This document shows positions 53,642 to 55,128 of a stretch of DNA of 64,000 bases, in pieces. The notes under the pieces were generated by a model. It was given only the letters and a program-made list of their open reading frames with translations. It searched no databases and was not told the origin of the DNA. The DNA lies in NCBI RefSeq assembly GCF_033153115.1, contig NW_026889754.1, positions 12,586,001-12,650,000 of the forward strand, written 5' to 3'. A program made the translations under genes and the position numbers. Every line of letters starts with the position of its first letter. Positions within the stretch are counted from its first letter, which is position 1. Source of the DNA: Saccostrea echinata. Lineage: Eukaryota.

Positions 53642-55128
53642 ATGGAACGGTACTTCATGATTTTCATTTATTTTTTTTGAGTCTGAAAAAAAAATTCGAA
53701 ACTTCTTTTCAGAGATATTTATTTCTTTTTTTTTTAAGGCAATGCATTTGCGATGACATAAAAGATATAATCGAAAAATTAACAACTATATGTGTGCAGC
53801 TTGGAAGGCTGCCCTGTCCGTGAGTATTTTTATTCTTTCCTGGAGTTATGATTCTTTGGATGTTATTCTTAAACGTCAGGTATGTCCAATATTAATTTCT
53901 GTTTTTTTTTTTCAATTATAGCATGGACTATTATTCCAACAAACGAAGGGGGCCCATGACTAGGTATTTCCCATAATTTTACTTTTTTTTCTACTTCTAC
54001 TTGAAAAGATTTCCTTCTTTTTTCACTTAGTTCATCATAAATAATTCTTATCGAAGGTATTATGATCGGATAAAATTAATATACAATAATTTTTTTTCAC
54101 TATCAAGATTAATGATTATATTTAAAAATCATACATTTTTTTTAAATTGACATTTGTTAATGTTACCATAAAAAGATCATCTTTCAATTTTGCATTTTTA
54201 TCTCATTTTTCAGTACACCCACTGAGTAAGTTTATTTTACAGAAAATTTTCGAGAGAACATAATCAATAAAAATGAAATTATACCTACTTTAATTAATAT
54301 TCAAATTATGTATTCGACGCATTTTTATTTCTGTAAAAATAGAGAACCAAGTACACGCCGAAAAGCGATGGCAACAGGGTTAGTATTTTTTTCGTCATGA
54401 TTTTAAACAATTTTCCACTTCTTCATATTAAAGGCAATAGTGTATACTATTTCATTTTCAAATTGTGTATCCTTTGGGGGTTTTTTTATAGCGAGACCCC
54501 TCGGCGCGCCGCGGCAGCATTGGGGTTAGTATTTTTTTTTTCTAAAAGGGTTTTGATCAAACTTCATCCTCTAAATTGTTAGTAAAAATGTTTTAATTAT
54601 TTTCCCCCTTTTATTTTCTTCTACACAGACATCCACCCAATGCCCCAAGGAGGAGGAATCTGTTAGTATAGTTATTGCAATGATTAGTCTTAAAATACGA
54701 AAAATATTGTATACACTTCTTTCACATCATTATTAAACATTGATTTTTTTTTACAGTCCAGTGGTAGACATCATCACAATAAGTGATGAGTAAGTGATTT
54801 ATTTATTTTTTTTCCCAAATCATACCTGAGTTTTTTCCTCCTTTAATATATATTTTTTTTTATTTATACTGAACTCTTATTATTCCAGTAGCACAAACCC
54901 CGGTGAGACAGAAAGGTACTCCCTTTTAGGGAGTACCTTCGACCTACTCAATATGTCCACCTTTAATTTAAGGTAATTGAAAATATCCTTCTACCCATTT
55001 ACTTATTTTTTTTTTAAAAGAGAGATTTTCACACAATCGTTTTAAGATAAAACGTTTATAAGTCTTGACAATTGTTTTTTAGCCCTGAGGACAAGGAAGA
55101 GGAAAAGAAGAAGGACAAAAAGGATTAG
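53642..55128 (+). CDS. 10-exon micro-exon gene, 135-aa protein with SIM-like motif (copy B)
   Basis: Exons 53642-53649, 53739-53819, 53922-53963, 54214-54225, 54343-54378, 54492-54524, 54629-54661, 54757-54789, 54889-54972 and 55083-55128 give 408 nt from ATG to TAG with no internal stop. Confidence 0.88.

What the first reader, a model, noticed from the sequence alone, without database searches (positions are those of the whole stretch)
53642..55128. Hidden 10-exon micro-exon gene inside a Polinton virus
Seen: ten GT-AG-bounded exons (8, 81, 42, 12, 36, 33, 33, 33, 84 and 46 nt) join to MERQCICDDIKDIIEKLTTICVQLGRLPCPMDYYSNKRRGPMTSTPTEEPSTRRKAMATGETPRRAAAALGHPPNAPRRRNLPVVDIITISDDSTNPGETERYSLLGSTFDLLNMSTFNLSPEDKEEEKKKDKKD*. 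All nine introns are phase 2 and every internal exon is a multiple of 3, so any can be skipped in frame. The second copy (13436-14765) keeps the splice sites of exons 1-9, its exon length changes are only 3 or 6 nt, and many substitutions are synonymous. Known: Polinton core genes are usually long single ORFs, and symmetric micro-exon arrays are the hallmark of schistosome MEG genes. Inference: a functional, modular viral regulatory protein with roughly one linear motif per exon (basic NLS-like RR exons; a SUMO-interacting-like VVDIITISDD exon).
Basis: partly seen in the sequence, partly recalled or inferred. Interest (0 to 1): 0.92.

Follow-up and report, generated by a model that had tools for sequence, protein, structure and literature searches.

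The report
Micro-exon gene family in Polinton viruses
A virus-like mobile element in an animal genome carries a real, spliced gene built from eleven tiny interchangeable exons, probably a small regulator that hijacks the host nucleus, and no such gene design was found described for these viruses.

Summary
The gene is real. All ten exons sit where stated, all nine introns are GT-AG and phase 2, inside a complete 23.2-kb Polinton. Ten genomic copies keep 183 of 188 splice dinucleotides, with dN/dS 0.15-0.29. One public run shows 4 of the 9 junctions, including the 12-nt exon, but retains introns 5-8 and shows no exon skipping. Correction: there is an eleventh exon. Three further, more diverged subfamilies keep the phase-2 layout while gaining, losing and duplicating exons. 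Unexplained: between lineages, exon third positions diverge about 3.4 times more than flanking introns and far more than core genes. No protein homologue was found. Most likely a disordered nuclear regulator made of short motifs, in the style of adintovirus Oncoids or E1A; the SUMO-binding motif fits the consensus but is untested. It resembles schistosome MEGs in layout only. Intron-bearing Maverick cargo is known; this architecture was not found in print. The scan noted spliced micro-exons on a Polinton polymerase in another genome (e1-7879963), a different gene.

The parts
33183..56339 (.). Host element: complete Polinton/Maverick A, 23.2 kb, AGT-repeat termini, 229-nt terminal inverted repeats, 6-bp target duplication; pPolB, integrase, capsid, protease, ATPase, BIR and PC4 genes
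53068..53096 (+). Alternative upstream (non-coding in frame) exon end, joined to exon 2 in run X8; the donor dinucleotide is present in the nine other copies and absent from the window copy
   Evidence: the length accounting of the 792-nt contig is my inference
53572..53578 (+). TATA-like box about 70 nt before the start codon, nearly invariant in ten copies
   Evidence: (window 53560: 0.00); function inferred
53642..53649 (+). Exon 1 coding part (8 nt)
   Evidence: junction 1-2 not seen in RNA
53739..53819 (+). Exon 2 (81 nt): Cys-x-Cys, amphipathic-helix pattern, Pro-Cys-Pro; the only ordered-looking module
   Evidence: (junction 2-3)
53922..53963 (+). Exon 3 (42 nt), basic cluster
   Evidence: junctions 2-3, 3-4
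54214..54225 (+). Exon 4 (12 nt), Thr-Pro micro-exon, peptide invariant in ten copies
   Evidence: (exactly these 12 nt between exons 3 and 5)
54343..54378 (+). Exon 5 (36 nt; 33 or 42 in other lineages), Arg-rich
   Evidence: (junction 4-5)
54492..54524 (+). Exon 6 (33 nt); no counterpart in subfamily 2
   Evidence: junctions not seen in RNA
54629..54661 (+). Exon 7 (33 or 30 nt), Pro-Asn-Ala-Pro module recognisable in all four subfamilies
   Evidence: by eye in 76, 81, 88
54757..54789 (+). Exon 8 (33 or 39 nt), SIM-like hydrophobic core followed by Ser and acidic residues
54889..54972 (+). Exon 9 (84 nt), conserved hydrophobic motif; two exons in subfamily 2
   Evidence: (junction 9-10)
55083..55145 (+). 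Exon 10 (63 nt), charged tail; the window copy stops at 55126-55128
55325..55390 (+).
   Evidence: not seen in RNA
13436..14765 (-). Second copy, exons 1-9; interrupted in intron 9 by a nested Polinton of about 19.9 kb
51190..53106 (-). Divergent neighbour: spliced gene for a signal-peptide, Cys-rich, mucin-stalk membrane protein; travels with the micro-exon gene
   Evidence: (joint 51836-52214)

Best explanation
A native accessory gene of a Polinton virus family. Host RNA polymerase II transcribes it from a TATA promoter shared back-to-back with a membrane-protein gene, and the host spliceosome joins eleven short exons into an mRNA for a protein of about 140 residues (splicing shown for 4 junctions, inferred for the rest). 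The protein is one short amphipathic helix with cysteines followed by a disordered string of motifs: basic clusters with Thr-Pro sites (nuclear import under kinase control), a SIM-like motif, a hydrophobic binding motif and a charged tail. It most likely enters the nucleus and acts as an adaptor that engages SUMO-marked host silencing or cell-cycle factors to let the element be transcribed and copied, as Oncoid/E1A-type proteins do (inferred from composition, motif conservation and position upstream of pPolB). The uniform phase lets whole motifs be added, lost or duplicated between lineages (shown), and splicing of introns 5-8 may gate production of the full SIM-bearing form (one contig; weak). 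I put the gene's reality at about 0.95 and the nuclear-adaptor role at about 0.55.
For: Junctions 2-3, 3-4, 4-5 and 9-10 in run X8. dN/dS 0.15-0.29 in 10 of 10 pairs; shifted or reverse frames give pN/pS 0.92-3.5 except the antisense frame sharing third positions. 183 of 188 splice dinucleotides canonical; length changes shared between copies are multiples of 3 in exons 2-9. Young copy pairs decay neutrally (20 of 1732 exon sites, 53 of 3575 intron sites; codon positions 6, 7, 5), so selection acted on the replicating element, not in the host genome. Subfamily 2 has 11 exons and 10 of 10 phase-2 introns at under 50% identity in exon 2. Motif matches the hhXh-plus-acidic SIM consensus of PMC8616421 (passages; matched by eye). 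Oncoids lie upstream of PolB (PMC8502044, passages). Exons 5-7 and 10 are 70-95% disorder-promoting residues.
Against: 5 of 9 junctions unseen; introns 5-8 retained in the only contig covering them, at depth about 3.5; three of four laid runs show no splicing. Exons 6-8 alone give p<0.05 in only 5 of 10 pairs. dN (about 0.10) is no lower than intron divergence (0.05-0.10 in the closer pairs), so the low ratio owes much to high dS. No homologue or family in any database. The SIM consensus is degenerate and is not kept in subfamily 3 or in L109/L110 (by eye). No LxCxE or paired CxxC, so Oncoid criteria fail.
Confidence: 0.55

Rival explanations
1. A viral counterpart of schistosome MEGs: combinatorial exon skipping makes a pool of isoforms with different motif sets from one gene.
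For: All internal exons symmetric in family A and subfamily 2; an alternative first exon and both spliced and unspliced intron 9 in X8 show that splicing varies; exon gain, loss and duplication between subfamilies.
Against: No skipping junction among the joints listed for X8, where exons 3, 4 and 5 are all included (contigs at low depth drop rare forms). Uniform phase also follows from growth by exon duplication. L007 has a phase-1 intron 9 with the frame kept.
Confidence: 0.2
2. A captured host gene carried as cargo, like the intron-bearing wasp and krma genes of nematode Mavericks.
For: Intron-bearing cargo is described (10.1101/2022.07.12.499685, passages); host-type introns; several subfamily-3 and -4 copies have no core gene in the flanks fetched.
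Against: No database homologue; every copy whose context could be read is decayed, next to Polinton termini or core genes, or paired with the same membrane-protein gene; short uniform introns; neutral decay after insertion.
Confidence: 0.1
3. A small basic virion core or DNA-packaging protein rather than a regulator.
For: Small, Arg-rich middle exons; the element encodes capsid, protease and ATPase.
Against: Acidic tail, near-neutral net charge, fast turnover between lineages while capsid-module genes stay 99% identical, position outside the structural module, own promoter.
Confidence: 0.1
4. Chance splice-like signals in AT-rich DNA; no gene.
For: Chains of 5-7 pseudo-exons arise in 4 of 70 other tile-strands.
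Against: RNA junctions, codon-position bias 32/17/65 of 109 codons, conserved layout across subfamilies.
Confidence: 0.02

Closest known systems
Schistosome micro-exon genes (MEG; PMC4350168 and PMC10526429, passages read)
   Same: Ten or more short, mostly symmetric exons making up the coding region; fast-evolving exons.
   Different: No signal peptide; introns 89-250 nt instead of up to 5 kb; dN/dS 0.15-0.29 instead of high or above 1; no isoform pool shown; viral, not flatworm; no sequence similarity found.
Adintovirus Oncoid genes and adenovirus E1A-type motif hubs (PMC8502044, passages; E1A details recalled)
   Same: Small protein defined by short linear motifs, upstream of PolB, CK2-type site.
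   Different: No LxCxE, no paired CxxC, no clear CR1; Oncoids are described as plain ORFs, the paper's text has no mention of splicing; here roughly one motif per exon.
Intron-bearing cargo genes of nematode Mavericks (wasp proteases, krma kinases; 10.1101/2022.07.12.499685, passages)
   Same: Spliced gene in a variable region near a terminal repeat.
   Different: Those are folded enzymes of host origin in a GC-rich region with introns and exons equally conserved; this is a low-complexity micro-exon array in an AT-rich region with no host homologue found.
Vertebrate Mavericks (PMC8097293, passages)
   Same: AGT-repeat termini, 6-bp duplication, core modules, accessory regions.
   Different: That study saw no introns in genes of intact elements.

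Membership tests
Polinton/Maverick (host element) | pPolB, integrase, ATPase, protease, major capsid genes | tested here: met
   pPolB 4.5e-48, rve 5.9e-13, Peptidase_C5 3.8e-7; ATPase (0.0086) and double jelly roll (0.0029) weak, below curated cut-offs
Polinton/Maverick (host element) | Terminal inverted repeats, AGT-repeat ends, 6-bp target duplication | tested here: met
Schistosome MEG | Coding region mostly short symmetric exons | tested here: met
   8 of 8 internal exons multiples of 3, 12-84 nt; five are 36 nt or less
Schistosome MEG | N-terminal signal peptide, secreted product | tested here: not met
   N-terminus is charged and amphipathic; judged by eye, no predictor run
Schistosome MEG | Long introns (0.1-5 kb, longest centrally) | tested here: not met
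   89-250 nt
Schistosome MEG | Isoform pool by exon skipping | tested here: inconclusive
   none seen in one low-depth contig set
Schistosome MEG | High dN/dS | tested here: not met
   0.15-0.29
Adintovirus Oncoid | Position upstream of PolB | tested here: met
   pPolB starts at 47093 on the minus strand; gene at 53.6-55.4 kb
Adintovirus Oncoid | LxCxE and/or CR1 motif with paired CxxC | tested here: not met
   read by eye: a Cys-x-Cys pair only; no LxCxE
SUMO-interacting motif | hhXh or hXhh core (I, V, L) flanked by acidic or Ser residues | tested here: met
   by eye: present in all ten family-A copies and three subfamily-2 copies; core only in L085; absent in L054, L099, L109, L110
SUMO-interacting motif | Binds SUMO through that core | not testable with these tools
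   no SUMO reference or assay available

The most novel reading that the evidence does not exclude
A virus-encoded, exon-per-motif regulator whose output is set by host splicing, and whose architecture is also an escape device: cutting the message into pieces about as short as a piRNA, and driving its longer exons to diverge at silent sites, would blunt sequence-specific silencing by small RNAs made from unspliced resident copies. It fits that third positions vary most in the long exons (informative sites 33 of 66, against 12 of 46 in short exons and 34 of 340 in intron interiors). Against it: parts of the large neighbouring exon and all core genes are not accelerated.
Probability: 0.15. Interest if true: 0.92.

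Novelty: new variant of a known kind. Interest (0 to 1): 0.72.

Why it matters
Polintons are annotated by long open reading frames, and intact vertebrate elements were reported as intronless. Here about 6 kb that look empty hold three spliced genes, one invisible to ORF finders and absent from every protein database searched. If general, a layer of host-manipulating genes has been missed in these viruses. The gene offers a natural series in which single motifs are gained and lost as exons, a convergent parallel to schistosome MEGs, and a measurable puzzle (exons outrunning their own introns) that small-RNA and long-read data can test.

Tried and rejected
Homologue searches with single exons found nothing: word search (no candidate), profile search of 1.84 billion proteins (two repeat-rich proteins, rejected after for one of them and 41 matched stretches for the other), ESM Atlas (64), PDB (65: best E 0.052, coiled-coil peptides), Pfam (75: 0 families for 3 of 3 exon peptides), DNA pattern in viral and metagenome contigs (47, 48: 0). 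Only single exons were searched, not the full spliced protein, so sensitivity is low. Homodimer prediction for exon 2 gave no verdict. Conserved introns are not explained by RNA families (one match, E 0.17, outside the gene) or folding (z from -1.47 to +1.20 in 10 of 10 stretches). CpG decay does not explain exon acceleration (non-CpG 79 of 288 against 762 of 7662). Exon-only conversion from cDNA is disfavoured: exon and flanking-intron divergence correlate (rho 0.57, 40 non-independent values) and share partitions. Introns as copies of one element: only weak pairwise similarity. Runs X1, X3, X7 cover introns and show no GT-AG joints in the gene, so they look like DNA; 4 of the 8 listed runs were laid. 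A cyclin-docking RxL reading of exon 7/8 was dropped as not conserved. The exon tables of subfamilies 3 and 4 were not computed and rest on reading by eye.

Full report
Observation. The ten exons are at the stated places and give the stated protein; the nine introns are GT-AG, 89-250 nt, phase 2, and much poorer in GC than the exons. A second chain with another last exon also fitted the lengths, but RNA and the copies select the acceptor at 55083. Exon 10 continues to a conserved donor at 55145 and an eleventh exon begins at 55325. The window copy and L001 stop inside exon 10, as do L005, L006 and the second window copy at a different codon; L002 and L003 read on into exon 11. A blind chain finder beat 400 of 400 shuffles but was matched by 4 of 70 other tile-strands, so it is weak support.

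Setting. The gene lies at the right end of a complete Polinton, 33183-56339, with 229-nt terminal repeats, AGT-type ends and a 6-bp target duplication, and with pPolB, integrase, protease, weak ATPase and capsid matches, BIR and PC4. It is upstream of pPolB and back-to-back with a spliced membrane-protein gene. The host is an animal genome of 923 Mb; 'oyster' was not tested.

Copies. A DNA search of the genome gave 14 matches, 10 of them over most of the gene at 75-100% identity. Four copies align along nearly the whole element, one from pPolB on, three at the accessory end only. The script counted 184 of 188 splice dinucleotides as canonical; one of these is a shifted site in L008, so 183. 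Stops, frameshifts and lost splice sites in exons 1-9 are each confined to one copy (L003, L004, L005, L006, L008); length changes shared by copies are multiples of three; L007 has intron 9 in phase 1 with the frame kept. dN/dS over exons 2-9 is 0.15-0.29 in 10 of 10 pairs (p 7e-4 to 2e-9); variable columns fall 32, 17 and 65 on the three codon positions of 109 codons; exons 6-8 alone reach p<0.05 in 5 of 10 pairs. Five young pairs (three not independent) show no exon-intron or codon bias. This is the signature of a gene kept by selection while the element replicates and decaying after insertion.

RNA. Eight runs were listed and four laid. X8, whose library is not on record, has GT-AG joints on both strands and so is taken as RNA. 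It joins exon 2 to 3 (the nine intervening letters are the end of exon 2 with three silent differences, read by eye), exon 3 to 5 through exactly the 12 nt of exon 4, and exon 9 to 10. It also joins an upstream exon ending at 53096 to exon 2, using a donor found in nine of ten copies but not the window's; the transcript therefore comes from another copy or allele. The same 792-nt contig runs through introns 5-8 unspliced, and unspliced intron 9 is also present. Junction 1-2 and any skipping were not seen. Depth is about 3.5, contigs drop rare forms, and 146 pieces were not shown. X1, X3 and X7 look like DNA.

Family. Searches with exon 2, exon 9, motifs and DNA found three more subfamilies. 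Subfamily 2 was tabulated: 11 exons, 10 of 10 introns phase 2, no exon-6 counterpart, exon 9 in two pieces, with AGT-type termini nearby. Subfamilies 3 and 4 were read by eye only: they keep the short first exon, the 12-15-nt micro-exon or the Pro-Asn-Ala-Pro exon and acidic tail exons, with duplications, fusions and broken sites. Core genes lie 15-17 kb from two subfamily-4 copies and were not found in the flanks fetched for three others, so their Polinton context is only partly shown.

Unexplained. Between the window copy and L002, third positions differ at 30 of 53 sites in exons 2 and 9, at 8 of 1177 in four core genes, 134 of 1494 in pPolB, 13 of 194 and 5 of 98 in the neighbour's large exons, while adjacent introns differ at 6 of 100, 7 of 92 and 6 of 109. 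Subfamily 2 repeats this: 33 of 126 in exons 2-3 against 12 of 329 in introns 1-3. The median ratio of third-position to flanking-intron divergence is 3.4. It is not CpG decay, not intron RNA structure, and probably not exon-only conversion. Exons of the two neighbouring genes show patches of the same. Candidates: strong constraint on the AT-rich non-coding DNA; old exon alleles kept by balancing selection amid frequent recombination (copies are mosaic); or selection for nucleotide change against host small RNAs. I cannot separate them. It also means that the low dN/dS partly reflects high dS.

Mechanism. Shown: transcription and splicing of part of the model, selection on the protein, exon-level turnover. 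Inferred: a disordered protein with a cysteine-flanked amphipathic helix, basic clusters beside Thr-Pro sites, a SIM-like core with Ser and acidic residues resembling the Daxx SIM quoted in PMC8616421, a hydrophobic motif and a charged tail, acting in the nucleus as an adaptor against SUMO-dependent silencing or on cell-cycle control. The SIM core varies only among I, V and L in family A and subfamily 2 but is lost in more distant members, and the review warns that many consensus matches are not real. Rivals are listed with odds.

Known work. MEGs: layout alike, but signal peptide, long introns and high dN/dS are not met (PMC4350168; PMC10526429; passages). Oncoids: position met, motifs not (PMC8502044, passages; one supplementary file, cut when stored, searched with no hit for splice, intron or exon; its maps are pictures I could not see). 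Intact vertebrate Mavericks reported intronless (PMC8097293, passages); nematode Maverick cargo has introns (10.1101/2022.07.12.499685, passages); introners occur in dinoflagellate elements (PMC11957031, passages). Passages of 10.1101/2024.03.25.586562 and 10.64898/2026.10.13.758929 held nothing on such genes. Molluscan piRNAs: PMC6128900, listing only. Searches for a micro-exon gene in Polintons found none; one search returned 0 papers, and none of the 12 papers listed of 82 holds the word micro-exon. The library lacks most subscription papers and Repbase notes. E1A details are recalled. The scan's own notes hold nothing on this DNA and one unrelated case of spliced leader micro-exons on a Polinton polymerase (unchecked).

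Verdict. A real, previously unannotated micro-exon gene family of Polintons; a new variant of known kinds.

Noticed in passing
window 50340-51010, minus strand: A second spliced accessory gene (joint 50671-50981 in run X8); its GC-rich exon reads as a small membrane protein and is the most variable stretch of the region (0.2-0.4 against 0.04-0.13 in flanks).
   Followed up: partly
window 51190-53106, minus strand: Spliced gene for a signal-peptide, Cys-rich, mucin-stalk type I membrane protein; its first exon lies divergently upstream of the micro-exon gene in L053, L056, L079, L091, L095 and L123 as well.
   Followed up: partly
G000:C5:12579521-12599405 (window 1-13405): A second Polinton family (about 40-55% protein identity to A) inserted in intron 9 of the second copy; 186-nt terminal repeats with an end motif unlike the AGT type.
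   Followed up: partly
window 33183-47100 against L035/L036, L039/L040, L043/L044, L049/L050: Core genes are about 99% identical among copies, pPolB 94-97%, the accessory end 82-91%: the element is a mosaic of modules of different age.
   Followed up: partly
L099 (G000:C33:19212107-19215650), minus strand: Subfamily-3 gene with a tandemly duplicated two-exon unit in place of the helix exon (read by eye).
   Followed up: no
L109 (G000:C5:13239402-13243193), minus strand: Exons 1 and 2 appear fused in frame, with what may be a 9-nt intron remnant (read by eye).
   Followed up: no
window 33532-34058 and 47635-48334: Internal tandem duplications of about 290 and 346 nt in element A.
   Followed up: no
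window 36102-36644 and 35115-35624: BIR (IAP-like) and double-PC4 genes beside the integrase; IAP homologues are already reported for adintoviruses.
   Followed up: no
window 20700-24300, 56052-61586: A 436/437-nt tandem repeat; an integrase-core transposon remnant at 58381-59681; a GDSL/zinc-knuckle ORF at 60072-61586.
   Followed up: no
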